Positions 7,448 to 15,946 of a DNA stretch of 15,946 nucleotides are shown in pieces. Location: the IMG/VR virus record IMGVR_UViG_2645728048_000025. One strand, written 5' to 3'. The stretch's first letter is position 1. Each line of letters starts with the position of its first letter. The notes below the pieces were generated by a model. That model saw only the letters and a list, made by a program, of their open reading frames with translations. It was not told the origin of the DNA and did not search any database. Both the position numbers and the translations under genes were made by a program. Source of the stretch: a virus (lineage: Duplodnaviria; Heunggongvirae; Uroviricota; Caudoviricetes).

Positions 7448-8164
7448 ATGGAAAATAAAAAATCACTGACGACAGAACAGCTCGAAGACGCTAAGCGGCT
7501 TAAGGCTTTGTATGAGTCAAAAAAGAAAGAATTGGGAATAACCCAATACTCAATCGCTGATGAACTGGGTATCACCCAAGGAGCGGTAGGGCATTATCTT
7601 AATGGCAGAAACGCGCTAAACGTTGAGGTTGCATCTGGTTTTGCACGATTGTTGCAAGTCTCAATTGCTGATTTTAGCCAGTCAATTGCTGCCAAGGTTG
7701 CAGAACAGGCAGAAAGCCTTAAGAGCGATGCCAACGTAAGGTATGCAGGGGAATACAGAGCAGGAAAGAGGTATCCGGTGTTAAGCAGTATCCAGGCTGG
7801 CTCGTGGTGTGAAGCATGCGAACCATACACCATTAAAGACATAGATGTTTGGCTTGAGTCTGACGCGCATATTCAAGGTAATGCGTTCTGGCTTAAAGTG
7901 GAAGGTGATTCAATGACGGCACCGGTTGGGTTAAGCATTCCAGAGGGAACATTCGTTCTTTTCGATACCGGAAGGGAGGCGATCAACGGCAGCTTGGTCA
8001 TAGCAAAACTTTCTGACTCTAACGAAGCAACATTCAAGAAGCTGATAATCGACGGCGGAAATAAATACCTCAAGGGACTTAATCCTGCATGGCCTCTCGT
8101 GCCAATCAATGGAAACTGCAAGATTATAGGCGTTGCAATTGAGACAAAACTAAGGCTGGTTTGA
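7448..8164 (+). CDS. cI: CI repressor (HTH N-terminal domain plus S24 LexA-like autopeptidase domain)
   Basis: HTH region (ITQYSIADELGITQGAVGHYLNG), putative Ala-Gly cleavage site in YPVLSSIQAGSW, catalytic Ser in EGDSM and Lys in FKKL; collinear with lambda CI. Confidence 0.9.
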   Translation: MENKKSLTTEQLEDAKRLKALYESKKKELGITQYSIADELGITQGAVGHYLNGRNALNVEVASGFARLLQVSIADFSQSIAAKVAEQAESLKSDANVRYAGEYRAGKRYPVLSSIQAGSWCEACEPYTIKDIDVWLESDAHIQGNAFWLKVEGDSMTAPVGLSIPEGTFVLFDTGREAINGSLVIAKLSDSNEATFKKLIIDGGNKYLKGLNPAWPLVPINGNCKIIGVAIETKLRLV

Positions 8165-8917: not shown

Positions 8918-9190
8918 ATGACAGTAGTCATTACATATCTGGCTGACGATAACGCCAGAAATCGCCGCAGAGCACGCAGACAGGCTCAACGTGAACAGGC
9001 AATGCAAGAGCAGCAACTGGCGCGAAAAATTGCGCTAAAGCTCTCTGGTTGCGTCAGAGCAGATAAAGCAGCATCACTCGGAAGCCTTCGCTGCAAGAAG
9101 GCAGATGAATGCAGTGGAAGTATTTGCCTGCCAAACGTAGCTCTTTACGCGGCAGGCTACCGTAACTCCAAACAACTGACAGCAAGATGA
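8918..9190 (+). CDS. N: N-like transcription antiterminator (arginine-rich motif)
   Basis: 90-aa ORF with N-terminal ARM (DDNARNRRRARRQAQREQAM); GGAGG 5 nt upstream of the ATG; first gene downstream of PL/nutL. Confidence 0.72.
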   Translation: MTVVITYLADDNARNRRRARRQAQREQAMQEQQLARKIALKLSGCVRADKAASLGSLRCKKADECSGSICLPNVALYAAGYRNSKQLTAR

Positions 9191-9250: not shown

Positions 9251-9493
9251 ATGAGAGTAAAAACTATGGGCGCAAGCCCATTAAGTGGTCGTATTTTTCA
9301 AGGAACATTAAACACTGAAAAAGGAATGTGGGTGGGAAAGAAAGAAGATGTAACCGAACAGGCAGTTAAGGCAGTAGCTGAACACATGATGATAAAAGAC
9401 CAGAAATATGCATACGAAACGAAGGATGGCAAATGGCTGATAATAAGTCATCAAATAGTTGATAAATTACCAGAAGAGTTTATTGCTGATTAA
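9251..9493 (+). CDS. Hypothetical protein (80 aa) directly after N
   Basis: ORF with GAGGA upstream; no recognisable family; followed by a hairpin and an intrinsic terminator. Confidence 0.45.
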   Translation: MRVKTMGASPLSGRIFQGTLNTEKGMWVGKKEDVTEQAVKAVAEHMMIKDQKYAYETKDGKWLIISHQIVDKLPEEFIAD

Positions 9494-10136: not shown

Positions 10137-10844
10137 ATGGATTTGAACAAATTCGATGAGCCATTCAGCCCTGAAGATATCGAATGGCGAATACAGCAAA
10201 GCGGTAAAACACGCGATGGCAAGGTGTGGGCTATGGTGCTGGCTTATGTCACGAACCGGGCAATCATGAAACGCCTGGACGATGTTTGCGGCAAAGCAGG
10301 ATGGCGCAATGAATACCGCGATATTCCCAACAACGGCGGCGTTGAATGCGGCATATCAATAAAGATTGATTCCGAATGGGTAACCAAATGGGATGCTGCT
10401 GAAAACACGCAGGTAGAAGCCGTCAAAGGTGGTCGTTCCGGTGCAATGAAGCGCGCTGCCGTTCAGTGGGGAATCGGTCGGTATCTGTATAACCTTGAGG
10501 AAGGTTTCGCACAAACATCTCTCGATAAAAAGCAGGGGTGGCACAGGGCAAAACTGAAGGATGGAACAGGATTTTACTGGCTCCCTCCATCGCTTCCGGG
10601 ATGGGCAATCCCAGCATCAGATAACAAACCATCACCAGAAAATACCAACCAGAAATCTCCATCGGTTGACTGCGAACAAATCCTGAAAGACTTCAGCGAT
10701 TATGCGTCAACAGAAACTGACAAGAAAAAACTCATCGAGCGTTATCAGCGTGACTGGCAATTAATGGCTGGCAATGAGGATGCGCAGGCTAAATGCGTTC
10801 AGGTAATGAGCATCAGAGTTAACGAACTAAAACAGGCGGCATAA
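10137..10844 (+). CDS. Single-strand annealing recombinase: Rad52/Sak-like core with an Erf-like C-terminal tail
   Basis: Core motif AVQWGIGRYLYNLEEG is typical of Rad52-family annealing proteins; the C-terminal 60 aa (ILKDFSDYASTETDKKKLIERYQRDWQLMAGNEDAQAKCVQVMSIRVNELKQAA) resembles the C-terminus of P22 Erf as recalled. GAGGTGA RBS. Confidence 0.72.
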   Translation: MDLNKFDEPFSPEDIEWRIQQSGKTRDGKVWAMVLAYVTNRAIMKRLDDVCGKAGWRNEYRDIPNNGGVECGISIKIDSEWVTKWDAAENTQVEAVKGGRSGAMKRAAVQWGIGRYLYNLEEGFAQTSLDKKQGWHRAKLKDGTGFYWLPPSLPGWAIPASDNKPSPENTNQKSPSVDCEQILKDFSDYASTETDKKKLIERYQRDWQLMAGNEDAQAKCVQVMSIRVNELKQAA

Positions 10845-11351
10845 ATGGCAAGCAGAGGCGTAAATAAGGTGATTATCCTTGGTCGGGTAGGACAAGACCC
10901 GGAAGTTCGATACTCACCATCAGGAACAGCGTTCGCTAACCTGACAATAGCCACGTCAGAACAATGGCGAGATAAAAATACTGGCGAGCAAAAGGAATTG
11001 ACTGAATGGCATCGTGTTGCTGTATCCGGGAAACTGGCTGAGGTCGTGGGGCAGTATGTGAAAAAAGGTGATCAGATTTATTTCGAGGGAATGCTGAGAA
11101 CCAGAAAGTGGAAAGACCAGTCAGGGCAAGACCGTTACACAACCGAGGTTCATGTCGGAATTAATGGCGTGATGCAGATGCTTGGCGGCATTGGCGACAG
11201 CAAACAACAAGCAGCCAGCAGGCAATCACAGAAGCCACAGCAGCAATCATCACCAGCACAACACAACGAACCTCCGATGGATTTTGACGACGATATACCC
11301 TTTGCACCAGTAACTCTCCCCTTCCCTCGTCACGCTATTCACGCAATTTAA
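10845..11351 (+). CDS. ssb: Single-stranded DNA-binding protein with a 15-aa extension beyond the DDDIPF tip
   Basis: OB-fold N-terminus ([39 protein letters not shown]), Gln-rich linker, MDFDDDIPF, then [15 protein letters not shown] before the stop. Confidence 0.85.
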
Positions 11352-11364
11352 TCAGGAGAAAATC

Positions 11365-11661
11365 ATGCCAGCGCCTCTGTATGGTGCGGACGACGCGCGC
11401 CGCTGTTCCGGCAATTCCGTATCGGAGGTGCTGGATAAATTCAGAAAAAACTACGACCTGATAATGTCGCTACCGCAGGAAACGAAAGAGGAAAAGGAAT
11501 TTCGCCACTGTATATGGCTTGCAGAGAAAGAAGAACGCGAGCGAATTTACCAGACATCAATCCGACCATTCCGCAAAGCCACATATACCCACTTCCCTGA
11601 ATATATCGACCCGCGCCTGCGTAATTACCGCTCACGCTATGGCGCTATCAGTAATGACTGA
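11365..11661 (+). CDS. Hypothetical protein (98 aa)
   Basis: ORF with AGGAG upstream; no recognisable family. Confidence 0.5.
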
Positions 11662-11671
11662 GGAATTTACC

Positions 11672-11839
11672 ATGAGAGGACTTGCATACAATCCCGGAAT
11701 TCTTCCGGCAGAAATGATTATTCGCCAACGCGTAAAGCCAATGCCATCGATAGAGGAATTGCTTAAGAGAAATTCTTTTCCATCAGTGAATCAAAACAAA
11801 TATCTGAATGCGATGTGGCGTAAAGGAGGCAAGCAGTGA
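11672..11839 (+). CDS. Hypothetical small protein (55 aa)
   Basis: Internal ATG of the track ORF 11519..11839, preceded by GAGGAA; begins 11 nt after the previous stop. Confidence 0.4.
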
Positions 11840-12090
11840 GTAATTCCGCACGACTACAGCTTGGTTTTTCACCGCTATCAAAAACTATCATGCTGGCAAA
11901 AATGCGCGATGTTGAAGGTGGACGTATGCGCGTTGGCAATGATCCAGGTCGTGATGTTACCAATGAGGCTGCTCAATTGGTGTGGCGACTGGTCATGGCT
12001 GAAGGTGGTGAGATCGCGTGGGAGCTGGATGATGGTTCTCGCATGGTGTTGAAGGCAGAAAAGCAGGAGGCAACCAGTGAGCAAGATTGA
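11836..12090 (+). CDS. Hypothetical protein (84 aa, GTG start)
   Basis: GTG preceded by AAGGAGG, overlapping the previous stop (GTGA). Confidence 0.45.
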
Positions 12091-13968: not shown

Positions 13969-14169
13969 ATGCAACACGAACTACAACCTGATTCACTGGT
14001 TGATTTGAAATTCATCATGGCCGATACTGGCTTCGGTAAAACCTTCATCTATGACCGGATTAAGTCCGGCGACCTGCCTAAAGCCAAAGTTATCCACGGA
14101 CGAGCAAGATGGTTATATCGTGACCATTGTGAATTCAAAAATAAGCTCTTAAGCCGCGCCAATGGGTAA
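13969..14169 (+). CDS. AlpA/Xis-family small DNA-binding protein (excisionase-like, 66 aa), with no adjacent integrase
   Basis: LVDLKFIMADTGFGKTFIYDRIKSGDLPKAKVIHGRARWLYRD fits the AlpA-type winged-helix pattern; GGAGA upstream of the ATG. Confidence 0.55.
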   Translation: MQHELQPDSLVDLKFIMADTGFGKTFIYDRIKSGDLPKAKVIHGRARWLYRDHCEFKNKLLSRANG

Positions 14170-14698: not shown

Positions 14699-15946
14699 CT
14701 ATATTGCTGAAGGTACAGGCGTTTCCATAACTATTTGCTCGCGTTTTTTACTCAAGAAGAAAATGCCAAATAGCAACATCAGGCAGACAATACCCGAAAT
14801 TGCGAAGAAAACTGTCTGGTAGCCTGCGTGGTCAAAGAGTATCCCAGTCGGCGTTGAAAGCAGCACAATCCCAAGCGAACTGGCAATTTGAAAACCAATC
14901 AGAAAGATCGTCGACGACAGGCGCTTATCAAAGTTTGCCACGCTGTATTTGAAGACGGATATGACACAAAGTGGAACCTCAATGGCATGTAACAACTTCA
15001 CTAATGAAATAATCCAGGGGTTAACGAACAGCGCGCAGGAAAGGATACGCAACGCCATAATCACAACTCCGATAAGTAATGCATTTTTTGGCTCTACCCG
15101 ATTCACAAAGAAAGGAATAATCGCCATGCACAGCGCTTCGAGTACCACCTGGAATGAGTTGAGATAACCATACAGGCGCGTTCCTACATCGTGTGATTCG
15201 AATAAACCTGCATAAAAGACAGGAAAAAGTTGTTGATCAAAAATGTTATAGAAAGACCACGTCCCCACAATAAATATGACGAAAACCCAGAAGTTTCGAT
15301 CCTTGAAAACTGCGATAAAATCCTCTTTTTTTACCCCTCCCGCATCTGCCGCTACGCACTGGTGATCCTTATCTTTAAAACGCATGTTGATCATCATAAA
15401 TACAGCGCCAAATAGCGAGACCAACCAGAAGTTGATATGGGGACTGATACTAAAAAATATGCCGGCAAAGAACGCGCCAATAGCATAGCCAAAAGATCCC
15501 CAGGCGCGCGCTGTTCCATATTCGAAATGAAAATTTCGCGCCATTTTTTCGGTGAAGCTATCAAGCAAACCGCATCCCGCCAGATACCCCAAGCCAAAAA
15601 ATAGCGCCCCCAGAATTAGACCTACAGAAAAATTGCTTTGCAGTAACGGTTCATAAACGTAAATCATAAACGGTCCGGTCAAGACCAGGATGAAACTCAT
15701 ACACCAGATGAGCGGTTTCTTCAGACCGAGTTTATCCTGAACGATGCCGTAGAACATCATAAATAGAATGCTGGTAAACTGGTTGACCGAATAAAGTGTA
15801 CCTAATTCCGTCCCTGTCAACCCTAGATGTCCTTTCAGCCAAATAGCGTATAACGACCACCACAGCGACCAGGAAATAAAAAAGAGAAATGAGTAACTGG
15901 ATGCAAAACGATAGTACGCATTTCTGAATGGAATATTCAGTGCCAT
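14699..15946 (-). CDS. cscB: LacY-family (MFS) oligosaccharide:H+ symporter, sucrose permease CscB-like (415 aa, complete)
   Basis: N-terminus MALNIPFRNAYYRFASSYSFLFFISWSLWWSLYAIWL and overall layout match LacY-family permeases, and to my recollection E. coli CscB specifically. The start codon is at the last base of the window. Confidence 0.8.
   Translation of the reverse strand: MALNIPFRNAYYRFASSYSFLFFISWSLWWSLYAIWLKGHLGLTGTELGTLYSVNQFTSILFMMFYGIVQDKLGLKKPLIWCMSFILVLTGPFMIYVYEPLLQSNFSVGLILGALFFGLGYLAGCGLLDSFTEKMARNFHFEYGTARAWGSFGYAIGAFFAGIFFSISPHINFWLVSLFGAVFMMINMRFKDKDHQCVAADAGGVKKEDFIAVFKDRNFWVFVIFIVGTWSFYNIFDQQLFPVFYAGLFESHDVGTRLYGYLNSFQVVLEALCMAIIPFFVNRVEPKNALLIGVVIMALRILSCALFVNPWIISLVKLLHAIEVPLCVISVFKYSVANFDKRLSSTIFLIGFQIASSLGIVLLSTPTGILFDHAGYQTVFFAISGIVCLMLLFGIFFLSKKREQIVMETPVPSAI

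What the first reader, a model, noticed from the sequence alone, without database searches (positions are those of the whole stretch)
10845..11351. Prophage SSB with a 15-residue extension past the DDDIPF tip
The canonical acidic tip MDFDDDIPF is present but the frame continues [15 protein letters not shown] before the stop. From established SSB biology, partner proteins bind the free C-terminal Phe carboxylate, so an extension should alter or block those interactions. It could be a genuine variant that avoids sequestering host partners, or a point mutation that removed the stop.
Basis: partly seen in the sequence, partly recalled or inferred. Interest (0 to 1): 0.5.

Follow-up and report, generated by a model that had tools for sequence, protein, structure and literature searches.

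The report
Phage SSB with a conserved capped tail
This prophage single-stranded-DNA-binding protein really does carry 15 extra residues after the normally terminal DDDIPF tip; the extra residues are a conserved, selected tail module shared by many mobile-element SSBs of enteric bacteria, not a lost stop codon, and their function has not been studied.

Summary
ORF 10845-11351 (+) encodes a 168-aa SSB ending ...[26 protein letters not shown].

It is not a private mutation. The same junction occurs in 297 of 5,426 complete E. coli genomes and in phages HK75, mEp235, mEpX2, epsilon34, g341c and ECP1. Of the 120 closest database homologues, 112 carry an extension.

The cap is nearly always 15 residues, with consensus [AS]P[VI][TG]L[PQ][FY]P[RS]HxI[HY]x[IL]-COOH. 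Substitutions are mostly synonymous only in the ssb reading frame. AlphaFold predicts it disordered. Tip plus cap occurs on at least three ssDNA-binding scaffolds, next to four kinds of annealing protein, and essentially only in Enterobacterales.

The canonical-looking alleles of Sf6, Huey, IME10 and N7 are derived. An HNH endonuclease gene that always sits directly after ssb inserted between Phe153 and Pro155. It brought a stop codon and took the last 14 cap residues as its own C-terminus.

The mechanism is inferred, not shown. Known SSB-tip pockets anchor the free carboxylate of the terminal Phe, so the cap should block host partners and offer a different C-terminal motif. That partner is unknown.

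I found no paper describing the cap. I rate it a new variant of a known kind, of moderate interest.

The parts
10137..10844 (+). Rad52/Rad22-type ('Erf-like') single-strand annealing protein. Its stop abuts the ssb start codon.
   Evidence: Pfam PF04098, E = 5.1e-26. Annotated the same way in HK75, Sf6 and mEp235.
10845..11351 (+). ssb ORF, 168 aa including the cap. Located in the early-left (pL) recombination module of a lambdoid prophage.
   Evidence: It is 99% identical in DNA to the annotated ssb of HK75, mEp235 and mEpX2. RefSeq annotates the full 168-aa product.
10860..11156 (+). OB-fold DNA-binding and tetramerisation domain (residues 6-104).
   Evidence: Pfam SSB match over residues 6-104. 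The AlphaFold2 model shows beta-strands over residues 8-113, with 10-residue block mean pLDDT of about 66-85 across residues 11-100.
11157..11270 (+). Gln/Pro/Ser-rich intrinsically disordered linker (residues about 105-142).
   Evidence: pLDDT below 50 from residue 106 onwards. These are the most variable columns of alignment A2.
11271..11303 (+). Acidic SSB-Ct tip [11 protein letters not shown] (residues 143-153), here internal rather than C-terminal. In HNH-carrying alleles this tract is replaced by a recoded version (PMNFDDEIPF* or MNFDDSDIPF*).
   Evidence: Tip codons show pN/pS 0.13.
11304..11348 (+). 15-residue cap [15 protein letters not shown] (residues 154-168). A conserved, disordered C-terminal short linear motif.
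   Evidence: Census of homologues. pN/pS is 0.28 in frame against 1.3 and 2.4 out of frame. Predicted disordered. No RNA structure, promoter or terminator in this DNA.
11306..11307 (+). Right-hand junction of the HNH endonuclease gene insertion seen in Sf6, Huey and related alleles. Homology of those alleles to the window resumes here. The left edge of their recoded tract is at 11273/11274.
   Evidence: Partial matches in 108 E. coli genomes start at query position 45/46 of window 11262-11351. Huey sequence. Huey and Sf6 proteins.
11349..11351 (+). TAA stop of the extended ssb. A mosaic boundary lies immediately after it.
   Evidence: In epsilon34 and mEp235, similarity to the window ends exactly at the stop and a DnaQ-like exonuclease gene follows.
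11365..11661 (+). abc2, the P22-type anti-RecBCD protein. Its ribosome-binding site AGGAG lies after the ssb stop.
   Evidence: Pfam PF11043, E = 4e-62. Sequence.

Best explanation
The ORF is an intact member of a widespread class of mobile-element SSBs of Enterobacterales. In this class the usual acidic tip (...[11 protein letters not shown]) is followed by a conserved, disordered 15-residue cap, [AS]P[VI][TG]L[PQ][FY]P[RS]HxI[HY]x[IL]-COOH.

Shown here:
- The cap is common.
- It is under purifying selection as a peptide.
- It travels with the acidic tip as one C-terminal module on at least three different ssDNA-binding scaffolds.
- It is not tied to one annealing-protein family.
- It is the older state at this locus. 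Canonical-stop alleles in Sf6, Huey, IME10, N7 and CurroJimenez arose when an HNH endonuclease gene that always sits at the ssb 3' end inserted between Phe153 and Pro155. The insert supplied a recoded tip plus a stop codon, and its own ORF now ends in the last 14 cap residues.

Inferred mechanism:
- Every characterised SSB-tip pocket buries the terminal Phe and anchors its free alpha-carboxylate. The cap removes that carboxylate, so it should prevent or strongly weaken docking to host partners such as ExoI, RecQ, PriA, RecG and chi.
- The cap presents a different hydrophobic C-terminus ([HY]-x-[IL]-COOH) preceded by an LxF/Y motif.
- The phage SSB would therefore coat phage ssDNA without recruiting, or while excluding, the host SSB interactome, and would be read by a different, still unidentified partner. 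That partner is probably a host factor conserved in Enterobacterales.
For: Prevalence:
- 297 of 5,426 complete E. coli genomes carry the uninterrupted tip-cap junction.
- Phages HK75, mEp235, mEpX2, epsilon34, g341c, NM-3 and ECP1 carry the full extended ORF.
- 112 of the 120 best homologues have an extension.
- 19 species-representative genomes matched, 18 of them Enterobacterales.

Selection:
- Length is 15 residues in nearly all, with conservative substitutions such as SPVGLQYGKHRVYAL, APIGLQFSRHSIHAI and APIGLPYPRHAIYVI.
- Pro, Leu and Arg positions use several synonymous codons.
- NG86 pN/pS is 0.28 in frame against 1.31 and 2.39 in the other frames. For the eight codons not fixed by the search pattern the values are 0.45 against 1.61 and 2.50.

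Modularity:
- Tip plus cap occurs on the long PF00436 SSB, on a short 'MAIN..' PF00436 SSB, and on an HK620-HkaK-like SSB (phrog_743). That third protein's body is 36% identical to HkaK, while its last 28 residues are 68% identical to the HK75 SSB tail. It also occurs on a phrog_4477 protein.
- Upstream annealing proteins are Rad52-like, ERF, RecT or Sak4.

Direction of change:
- HNH homologues lacking the tail end a few residues after ...IYPE/D.
- The phrog_2340 profile ends before the tail.
- One HNH (P0004) ends in a tail that resembles a +1-frame translation of the cap-coding DNA; this was judged from the protein sequence only.
- The HNH always lies directly after ssb.
- Huey SSB is identical to the window protein through Met145, then recoded.

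Disorder: pLDDT is about 30 for residues 106-168.

Masking logic: GFP fused to the C-terminus of E. coli SSB abolishes ExoI binding and chi-dependent synthesis, and is dominant negative (PMC7293020). SSB-Ct pockets anchor the alpha-carboxyl group (PMC10164576).
Against: - No binding, stability or genetic data exist for any capped SSB. The lambdoid SSB-1 proteins are described as not studied experimentally (PMC12315714).
- If masking were the only purpose, deleting the tip would suffice. Yet the tip is strongly conserved next to the cap (pN/pS 0.13), so tip and cap may act together in a way not captured here.
- Viable phages (Sf6, Huey, ES18) carry uncapped SSBs, so the cap is dispensable for growth in the laboratory.
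- Within E. coli and Salmonella phages the cap DNA is almost identical even between ssb bodies only 75-89% identical. Part of its uniformity therefore reflects recent recombination or gene conversion, not selection.
- The pN/pS values come from pooled pairwise comparisons of related sequences that were partly pre-filtered by the search pattern.
- The monomer AlphaFold model cannot exclude docking of the cap in the tetramer or on ssDNA.
Confidence: 0.55

Rival explanations
1. The cap is a C-terminal degradation or remodelling tag. A non-polar C-terminus preceded by basic residues (..PRHAIHAI) would be recognised by ClpXP (compare the MuA C-terminus RRKKAI), ClpAP, FtsH or Lon. This would keep the phage SSB short-lived so that it does not poison the host replisome in lysogens or late in infection.
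For: - The terminal tripeptide is consistently [HY]-[AVSCL]-[IL]-COOH, preceded by R/K-H.
- A common truncated allele (P0041, a cluster of 588 sequences) ends ..PRHAI, which recreates the same HAI terminus.
- The tail is disordered, as degrons are.
- C-terminally blocked SSB is dominant negative when over-expressed (PMC7293020), so limiting its level would make sense.
- The resemblance to the MuA tag is from memory, not tested.
Against: - A simple degron does not explain the equally conserved N-terminal half of the cap (P-[VI]-[TG]-L-[PQ]-[FY]-P).
- It does not explain the fixed 15-residue length.
- It does not explain the constant pairing with an intact acidic tip.
Confidence: 0.15
2. The cap is a beta-sliding-clamp-binding motif or another positive recruitment motif. 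P-V-T-L-P-F resembles the hexapeptide clamp-binding class (Hda QLSLPL, Pol IV QLVLGL), so the phage SSB would tether the host clamp or another hub to phage ssDNA.
For: - Hydrophobic residues at cap positions 3, 5 and 7, with Pro or Gln at position 6, are conserved across all variants.
- The motif lies in a disordered tail near the C-terminus, as many clamp-binding motifs do.
- The comparison with known motifs is from memory.
Against: - The near-universal leading Gln of clamp-binding motifs is replaced by an invariant Pro.
- Eight further conserved residues follow the motif.
- The strict distance to the C-terminus is not a feature of clamp-binding motifs.
- No structural or binding test was possible.
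Confidence: 0.1
3. The cap is translated but functionally neutral. The 45 nt would be conserved at the DNA level, as the recognition or homing site of the HNH endonuclease, as a recombination boundary sequence between phage modules, or as part of the abc2 translation initiation region.
For: - Cap DNA is about 100% identical between ssb alleles whose bodies are only 75-89% identical.
- A mosaic junction lies exactly at the stop codon.
- An endonuclease gene inserts precisely at the tip/cap junction.
Against: - In more distant relatives the DNA diverges freely at synonymous sites while the peptide and its length are kept (pN/pS 0.28-0.45 in frame against above 1.3 out of frame).
- The cap is kept on unrelated scaffolds with unrelated downstream genes.
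- The abc2 ribosome-binding site lies after the stop.
- No RNA structure or promoter/terminator signal is present.
Confidence: 0.1
4. The extension is a scar. A precise or imprecise deletion of the HNH endonuclease gene would have fused the ssb tip in frame to the last 14 codons of the endonuclease gene.
For: The last 14 residues of Sf6 gp26 and of the Huey endonuclease are identical to cap residues 155-168. SSB-HNH deletion fusions do occur (P0016 and P0017).
Against: - HNH homologues in other ssb contexts lack the tail, and the family profile ends before it.
- The cap is far more widespread and more diverse than the tailed endonucleases, including on scaffolds and in genera where no such endonuclease was seen.
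- Capped alleles outnumber HNH-carrying ones 297 to about 108 in E. coli.
Confidence: 0.03
5. The extension is a private point mutation or a sequencing error that removed the stop codon in this one prophage.
For: None beyond the bare sequence.
Against: The identical junction is found in hundreds of independently sequenced genomes and phages.
Confidence: 0.01

Closest known systems
E. coli chromosomal SSB (PF00436) and its SSB-Ct interaction hub
   Same: OB-fold tetramerisation and DNA-binding domain, disordered Gln/Pro-rich linker, and an identical acidic tip [13 protein letters not shown].
   Different: In E. coli SSB the tip Phe is the last residue and its free carboxylate is a key contact (PMC10164576). 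Here 15 conserved residues follow it.
Engineered SSB with GFP fused to the C-terminus (Dubiel et al. 2020, PMC7293020)
   Same: The tip is made internal by residues added after Phe. This is the only experimental analogue of a capped tip. It binds ssDNA normally but not ExoI, fails in chi-dependent synthesis, and is dominant negative.
   Different: That cap is an artificial 27-kDa folded domain. The natural cap is a 15-residue conserved linear motif with its own conserved C-terminus.
SSB of phage HK620 (HkaK), the cognate partner of the Sak4 annealase (Hutinet et al. 2018, PMC5928155)
   Same: A phage recombination-module SSB whose last residues decide partner use; its C-terminal NDYPPF is needed to stimulate Sak4. 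Relatives of this scaffold carry the same tip+cap module as the window protein.
   Different: HK620's own tail is an uncapped tip-like motif, and its scaffold is a different family from the window SSB.
Sf6 gp27 SSB and gp26 HNH endonuclease; Huey, IME10, N7, CurroJimenez; ES18 gp48/gp47
   Same: The same recombination module (Rad52-like annealase, ssb, abc2). The Huey SSB is identical to the window protein through Met145. gp26 ends in the same 14 residues as the cap.
   Different: In those phages ssb ends at a recoded canonical tip (MNFDDSDIPF* or MNFDDEIPF*), and an HNH gene sits between ssb and abc2. The Sf6 annotation noted the 14-residue identity with an 'E. coli SSB' but did not explain it.
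T7 gp2.5 acidic C-terminal tail (from memory)
   Same: A phage SSB whose C-terminal tail, ending in an aromatic residue, selects its replication partners.
   Different: Unrelated sequence. The terminal Phe is free and there is no cap.

Membership tests
Bacterial-type SSB (Pfam PF00436) | N-terminal OB-fold DNA-binding and tetramerisation domain | tested here: met
   PF00436 E = 1.6e-36 over residues 6-104. The AlphaFold2 model gives the beta-strand pattern of an OB fold at moderate confidence.
Bacterial-type SSB (Pfam PF00436) | Low-complexity disordered linker followed by the acidic motif D-D-D-I-P-F | tested here: met
   Sequence [33 protein letters not shown]. pLDDT below 50 from residue 106. 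The 13-residue match to the E. coli SSB tail is identical.
Bacterial-type SSB (Pfam PF00436) | Phe of the tip is the C-terminal residue, so its free alpha-carboxylate is available to partner pockets | tested here: not met
   15 residues follow Phe153. The requirement for the alpha-carboxyl contact is from PMC10164576 and PMC7293020.
Bacterial-type SSB (Pfam PF00436) | Binds ssDNA as a tetramer and binds SSB-interacting proteins | not testable with these tools
   Needs biochemistry.
Capped mobile-element SSB tail (class defined here) | Tip [DE]-[ILV]-P-F followed by [AS]-P-x-x-L-x-[FY]-x-x-x-x-[IV]-[HY]-x-[IL]-stop | tested here: met
   The pattern matched the window once (11286-11351) and 0 of 200 shuffles.
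Homing-endonuclease target (endonuclease-free allele) | Alleles with and without the endonuclease gene exist at the same position in otherwise near-identical genes | tested here: met
   Window and HK75 against Huey: 98-99% DNA identity on both sides of a 438-bp longer segment (994 against 556 bp). In E. coli, 297 genomes lack and about 108 carry the insert.
Homing-endonuclease target (endonuclease-free allele) | The endonuclease-carrying allele has altered sequence at the presumed cleavage site | tested here: met
   Nine of 27 nt differ across tip codons 144-152 in Huey, within an otherwise near-identical gene. The same kind of recoded tip is seen in Sf6, ES18, L016, L140 and L144.
Homing-endonuclease target (endonuclease-free allele) | The endonuclease cleaves the empty allele and the gene is copied into it | not testable with these tools
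   Needs cleavage and co-infection assays. A published view treats these HNH genes as recombination-module nucleases instead (PMC12315714).
Group I intron-encoded HNH | Structured intron RNA around the endonuclease ORF | tested here: not met
   No Intron_gpI or other relevant Rfam match in Huey L005 1800-2600 at E <= 1. The insert is almost entirely ORF, with its own stop and ribosome-binding site upstream.
Beta-clamp-binding motif (QL[SD]LF / QLxLxL) | Leading Gln and hydrophobic residues at motif positions 2, 4 and 5/6 | tested here: inconclusive
   By inspection the hydrophobic pattern V-x-L-x-F fits, but Gln is replaced by an invariant Pro. The consensus is recalled from memory and no binding test was possible.
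ClpX C-terminal recognition tag (ssrA-like LAA or MuA-like RRKKAI) | Defined C-terminal residues with a free carboxylate | tested here: inconclusive
   The terminal [HY]-x-[IL] with upstream R-H only loosely resembles MuA ..KKAI. This is recalled from memory and no test was possible.

The most novel reading that the evidence does not exclude
Tip plus cap is a previously unrecognised, portable C-terminal interaction module of mobile-element ssDNA-binding proteins in Enterobacterales. It would turn the phage SSB into a partner-switched, possibly dominant-negative, version of the host SSB hub. Such a protein would coat ssDNA and form mixed tetramers, deny host nucleases, helicases and restart proteins access to phage recombination and replication intermediates, and use the new [HY]-x-[IL]-COOH terminus to engage one specific host or phage factor. 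That would be a host-takeover or anti-defence mechanism acting at the level of the SSB interactome. The HNH endonuclease insertion would provide natural 'cap-off' controls.
Probability: 0.25. Interest if true: 0.75.

Novelty: new variant of a known kind. Interest (0 to 1): 0.55.

Why it matters
The free C-terminal Phe of bacterial SSB is the textbook handle by which more than a dozen genome-maintenance proteins are recruited to ssDNA. Here a large natural class of phage and prophage SSBs buries that handle under a conserved 15-residue cap. The class is present in about 5% of complete E. coli genomes and across Enterobacterales.

If the cap blocks host partners or recruits a different one, it would show how temperate phages insulate or redirect their recombination intermediates. 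That bears on three things:
- how phage annealing proteins work with an SSB (the cap occurs beside Rad52-like, ERF, RecT and Sak4 proteins);
- the portability of recombineering systems;
- defence systems that sense phage SSBs.

Nature has also supplied matched controls. Near-identical phages exist whose SSB has lost the cap through insertion of an endonuclease gene, so the question can be tested directly.

Tried and rejected
- Sequencing error or private stop loss: rejected on prevalence.
- Scar of HNH excision: I took this seriously after finding that Sf6 gp26 and the Huey endonuclease end in the same 14 residues. I rejected it because HNH relatives elsewhere lack the tail, the family profile ends before it, and the cap is far more widespread and diverse than the endonuclease.
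- Group I intron that could splice the cap back on in HNH-carrying alleles: no Rfam match.
- Cap docking back on the OB domain: the monomer AlphaFold2 model shows the whole tail disordered. This does not exclude docking in the tetramer.
- Cap specific to the neighbouring Rad52-like annealase: rejected, because capped SSBs also sit beside ERF, RecT or Sak4 proteins and have varied downstream genes.
- phmmer of the last 40 residues against 1.84 billion cluster representatives: returned only 16 short fragments. These were useful for divergent cap variants but not for counting, because full-length capped SSBs are hidden inside clusters represented by other sequences.
- PDB search with the tail: only canonical tips matched; no solved structure contains the cap.
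- Literature: four full-text searches, including the cap sequence itself, found no description of the extension.
Full report
**1. The observation**

Window 10845-11351 (+) is an ATG-initiated ORF of 168 codons. It translates to an SSB ending ...[30 protein letters not shown]-stop. Pfam SSB (PF00436) matches residues 6-104 with E = 1.6e-36. The acidic tip occupies residues 143-153 (nt 11271-11303). The extension occupies residues 154-168 (nt 11304-11348), and the stop is at 11349-11351.

TTT(Phe153) is at 11301-11303, and 11304-11306 is GCA(Ala154).

The gene lies in the early-left operon of a lambdoid prophage. Going downstream, that operon holds:
- a cI-like repressor at 7448-8164;
- the N antiterminator at 8918-9190;
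- a Rad52-like annealing protein at 10137-10844;
- ssb;
- the P22-type anti-RecBCD gene abc2 at 11365-11661;
- Ead/Ea22 and DUF551 genes.

**2. It is not a private mutation**

The 556-nt query covering ssb and the start of abc2 matches phages HK75, mEp235 and mEpX2 at 99%. It matches epsilon34, g341c and NM-3 at 89%, and ECP1 and HZ41 at 75-77%, in every case over the whole extended ORF. The epsilon34 and ECP1 proteins have different bodies but the identical 15-residue extension.

A 90-nt probe across the tip/extension junction is fully covered in 297 of 5,426 complete E. coli genomes. RefSeq annotates the 168-aa product as SSB.

Of the 120 best hits from a search of 5.8 billion proteins, 112 carry an extension after DDD[IV]PF, 7 stop at the tip, and 1 is frameshifted. 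The hosts named are Klebsiella, Citrobacter, Enterobacter, Salmonella, Kluyvera, Pluralibacter and Phytobacter.

**3. The extension is a conserved peptide**

Across the cap is almost always exactly 15 residues, with consensus [AS]P[VI][TG]L[PQ][FY]P[RS]HxI[HY]x[IL]-COOH. Divergent but recognisable forms include SPVGLQYGKHRVYAL, APIGLQFSRHSIHAI, APIGLPYPRHAIYVI and APIGLPFPSHSIYAL.

Three exceptions were seen:
- a 12-residue form ending ..PRHAI (P0041), which recreates the same HAI terminus;
- a 14-residue deletion form;
- a 16-residue form.

A degenerate DNA pattern for tip+cap+stop matched the window once and no shuffles.

Among 63 distinct nucleotide versions, the invariant Pro, Leu and Arg positions use three to five synonymous codons. 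Pooled Nei-Gojobori pN/pS is 0.28 in the ssb frame, against 1.31 and 2.39 in the two other frames. Restricted to the eight codons the pattern did not constrain, the values are 0.45 against 1.61 and 2.50. The tip codons give 0.13 and the linker 0.41.

These are crude pairwise figures on related sequences. The frame contrast is nevertheless what a translated, selected peptide gives.

No promoter-like site was found in 11150-11500; the one terminator-like site lies downstream at 11453-11470 on the minus strand, outside the cap DNA and within shuffle expectation. Neither a stable RNA fold nor a significant Rfam family (only one sub-threshold match elsewhere in ssb, E 0.33) was found for this DNA either. 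The abc2 ribosome-binding site lies after the stop. In epsilon34 and mEp235 the mosaic boundary falls exactly at the stop codon, so the cap belongs to the ssb module.

AlphaFold2, run with a 44-sequence alignment, models the OB domain and leaves residues 106-168 disordered at pLDDT about 30. The cap therefore behaves as a short linear motif.

**4. Tip plus cap is a portable module**

The same tip+cap ends at least three kinds of ssDNA-binding protein:
- the long PF00436 SSB of the window;
- a short 'MAIN[VI]IT.SGN.GKD' PF00436 SSB (L032, L058, Pseudescherichia, Kluyvera, Buttiauxella, Citrobacter, Providencia);
- a roughly 244-aa protein with no Pfam match that belongs to phrog_743 (L038, L060, Trabulsiella, Pantoea, Apirhabdus).

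The body of that third protein is 36% identical to HK620 HkaK, the SSB shown experimentally to stimulate Sak4 (PMC5928155). Its last 28 residues instead match the HK75 and g341c SSB tail at 68%. A fourth carrier is a phrog_4477 protein of unknown function (L031).

The upstream annealing protein is Rad52-like, ERF, RecT (with a YqaJ-like exonuclease) or Sak4. The downstream gene is abc2, a DnaQ-like exonuclease, or something else. The cap is therefore not matched to one phage partner.

A scan of one genome per species (185,579 species) gave 19 hits. All were in Enterobacterales except one assembly labelled Chryseobacterium, which carries an enterobacterial-type SSB and is probably contaminated. 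Because the pattern is strict, this count is a lower bound.

**5. Where the canonical-looking relatives come from**

In Sf6, Huey, CurroJimenez, IME10 and N7, ssb ends at a normal tip (MNFDDSDIPF* or MNFDDEIPF*). An HNH endonuclease gene follows about 10-15 nt later, and then abc2 or the exonuclease gene.

The endonucleases (Sf6 gp26, 159 aa; Huey, 155 aa) end ...[26 protein letters not shown], which is the last 14 residues of the cap. The Sf6 annotation had noted '14 contiguous amino acids identical to E. coli SSB' without explaining it.

Huey SSB is identical to the window protein through Met145. Nine of the next 27 nt then differ, followed by TAA, a ribosome-binding site and the HNH ORF. 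Identity to the window resumes at 11306/11307.

Which state is older? Four lines of evidence say the cap is:
- HNH homologues lacking the tail end 3-7 residues after ..IYPE/D (..PEEIIQL..PEDLKAA..PENTNA). One, P0004, ends in a tail (..PYPSLATQYTHSK) that resembles a +1-frame translation of the cap-coding DNA (compare the frameshifted P0024); its DNA was not examined.
- The phrog_2340 profile stops before the tail.
- Those tail-less HNH genes also sit directly after ssb, but in lineages whose empty allele has a canonical stop and no cap. Compare L140 with L018; homology resumes just after the HNH stop.
- The cap is far more widespread and varied than the tailed endonuclease.

The cap is therefore native to ssb. 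The endonuclease gene inserted into it, brought a stop for ssb, and now reads through the remaining cap codons to the old ssb stop.

ES18 carries an unrelated HNH (similar to T7 gp7.7) at the same place, with the same recoded tip and no cap remnant.

In complete E. coli genomes, about 99 carry the Sf6-type HNH and 10 the Huey-type. This matches the roughly 108 genomes in which only the cap half of the junction probe is found.

No group I intron signature surrounds the HNH ORF. The pattern fits a free-standing homing endonuclease that targets the highly conserved tip-coding DNA: alleles with and without the gene, a recoded flank, and a fixed insertion site. Cleavage and homing are untested. A recent survey instead counts these HNH genes as recombination-module nucleases (PMC12315714).

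**6. How the cap most likely works (inference)**

Published work describes three features of a typical SSB-Ct binding site: a hydrophobic pocket for the terminal Phe, a basic lip that anchors its alpha-carboxyl group, and a basic ridge for the Asp side chains. Deleting the Phe abolishes binding (PMC10164576).

An E. coli SSB with GFP fused directly to its C-terminus binds ssDNA normally. It shows no detectable ExoI binding, does not support chi-dependent strand-displacement synthesis, and behaves as a dominant negative from a plasmid (PMC7293020).

By that logic the 15-residue cap should stop the phage SSB from docking into host SSB-partner pockets. Two further facts point to a positive function as well:
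- the cap sequence and length are conserved, and its C-terminus is always hydrophobic;
- the adjacent acidic tip is also strongly conserved.

Together these suggest a composite motif read by another partner. Because the phage neighbours vary and the distribution is confined to Enterobacterales, that partner is probably a host protein.

Two specific versions could not be tested. One is a protease or unfoldase tag, based on a loose resemblance of ..RHAIHAI to the MuA tag. The other is a clamp-binding-like hexapeptide, comparing PVTLPF with Hda QLSLPL. Both resemblances are recalled from memory, and I list them as rivals.

Against any essential role, Sf6, Huey and ES18 grow with uncapped SSBs.

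**7. Comparison with what is known, and novelty**

The protein is a bona fide member of the bacterial SSB family by domain, linker and tip. It fails one functional hallmark of that family, the free terminal Phe.

The gene itself is already in databases (HK75 gp31 and others) and is annotated simply as SSB. Four full-text literature searches, one using the cap sequence itself, found no description of the extension. The 2025 survey of lambdoid recombination modules states that these SSB-1 proteins have not been studied experimentally. No PDB chain contains the cap.

I therefore class it as a new variant of a known kind. This instance is ordinary within its class, but the class has an unexplained, conserved and testable departure from the SSB-tip paradigm. 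Interest is 0.55.

Noticed in passing
L004 2484-2963 (Sf6 gp26); L005 1978-2445 (Huey); L016 3468-3947; L140 3001-3435; L144 3001-3429. Corresponds to window 11273-11307.: A family of small HNH endonuclease genes (phrog_2340) always sits about 10-15 nt after ssb. The ssb tip codons of carrier alleles are recoded (MNFDDEIPF, MNFDDSDIPF, MNFDDYDIPF). This is the signature of a free-standing homing endonuclease targeting the conserved tip-coding DNA. In capped lineages the gene has no stop of its own and ends in the last 14 cap codons. PGAP and other annotation pipelines often leave it uncalled.
   Followed up: yes
L008 2501-3531 (ES18 gp48/gp47): An unrelated HNH endonuclease (similar to T7 gp7.7) occupies the same position after ssb. 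It has the same recoded tip as Huey and no cap remnant. The ssb 3' end therefore appears to be a hotspot for different endonuclease genes.
   Followed up: partly
Proteins P0016 (178 aa), P0017 (139 aa) and P0024 (206 aa): These are natural deletion or frameshift chimeras. P0016 and P0017 fuse the SSB OB domain directly to the C-terminal half of the HNH endonuclease, still ending in the cap. P0024 is an HNH fused by frameshift to the DnaQ-like exonuclease. They show that this junction is rearrangement-prone.
   Followed up: no
P0041, Salmonella, a cluster of 588 sequences: A common allele has a 12-residue cap, [12 protein letters not shown]. Loss of one HAI repeat recreates the same C-terminal HAI tripeptide, which hints that the extreme C-terminus matters.
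   Followed up: no
L031 39-476 (viral contig of 146 kb): A phrog_4477 protein of unknown function ends in ...[27 protein letters not shown]. Its matches to SSB families (phrog_18154, phrog_44) are weak and confined to the C-terminal region, so tip+cap may occur on a protein whose body is not an SSB.
   Followed up: partly
L164 (assembly labelled Chryseobacterium sp. 18061, 799-kb contig): This contig carries a capped SSB 71% identical to the window protein (P0072). It is the only hit outside Enterobacterales and is probably a contaminated or mislabelled assembly.
   Followed up: no
Window 13969-14169 and 14699-15946 (-): The prophage abuts a chromosomal oligosaccharide MFS transporter gene (csc sucrose locus in the related strain PM7). 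A TorI-like excisionase gene lies near the junction, and no integrase ORF was noticed between them. The related genome shows several pseudogenes in this arm, so the prophage may be defective.
   Followed up: no
Window 9251-9493 and 11836-12090: Two paralogous DUF7446 genes flank the recombination module (Pfam E = 5.6e-29 and 1.3e-18).
   Followed up: no
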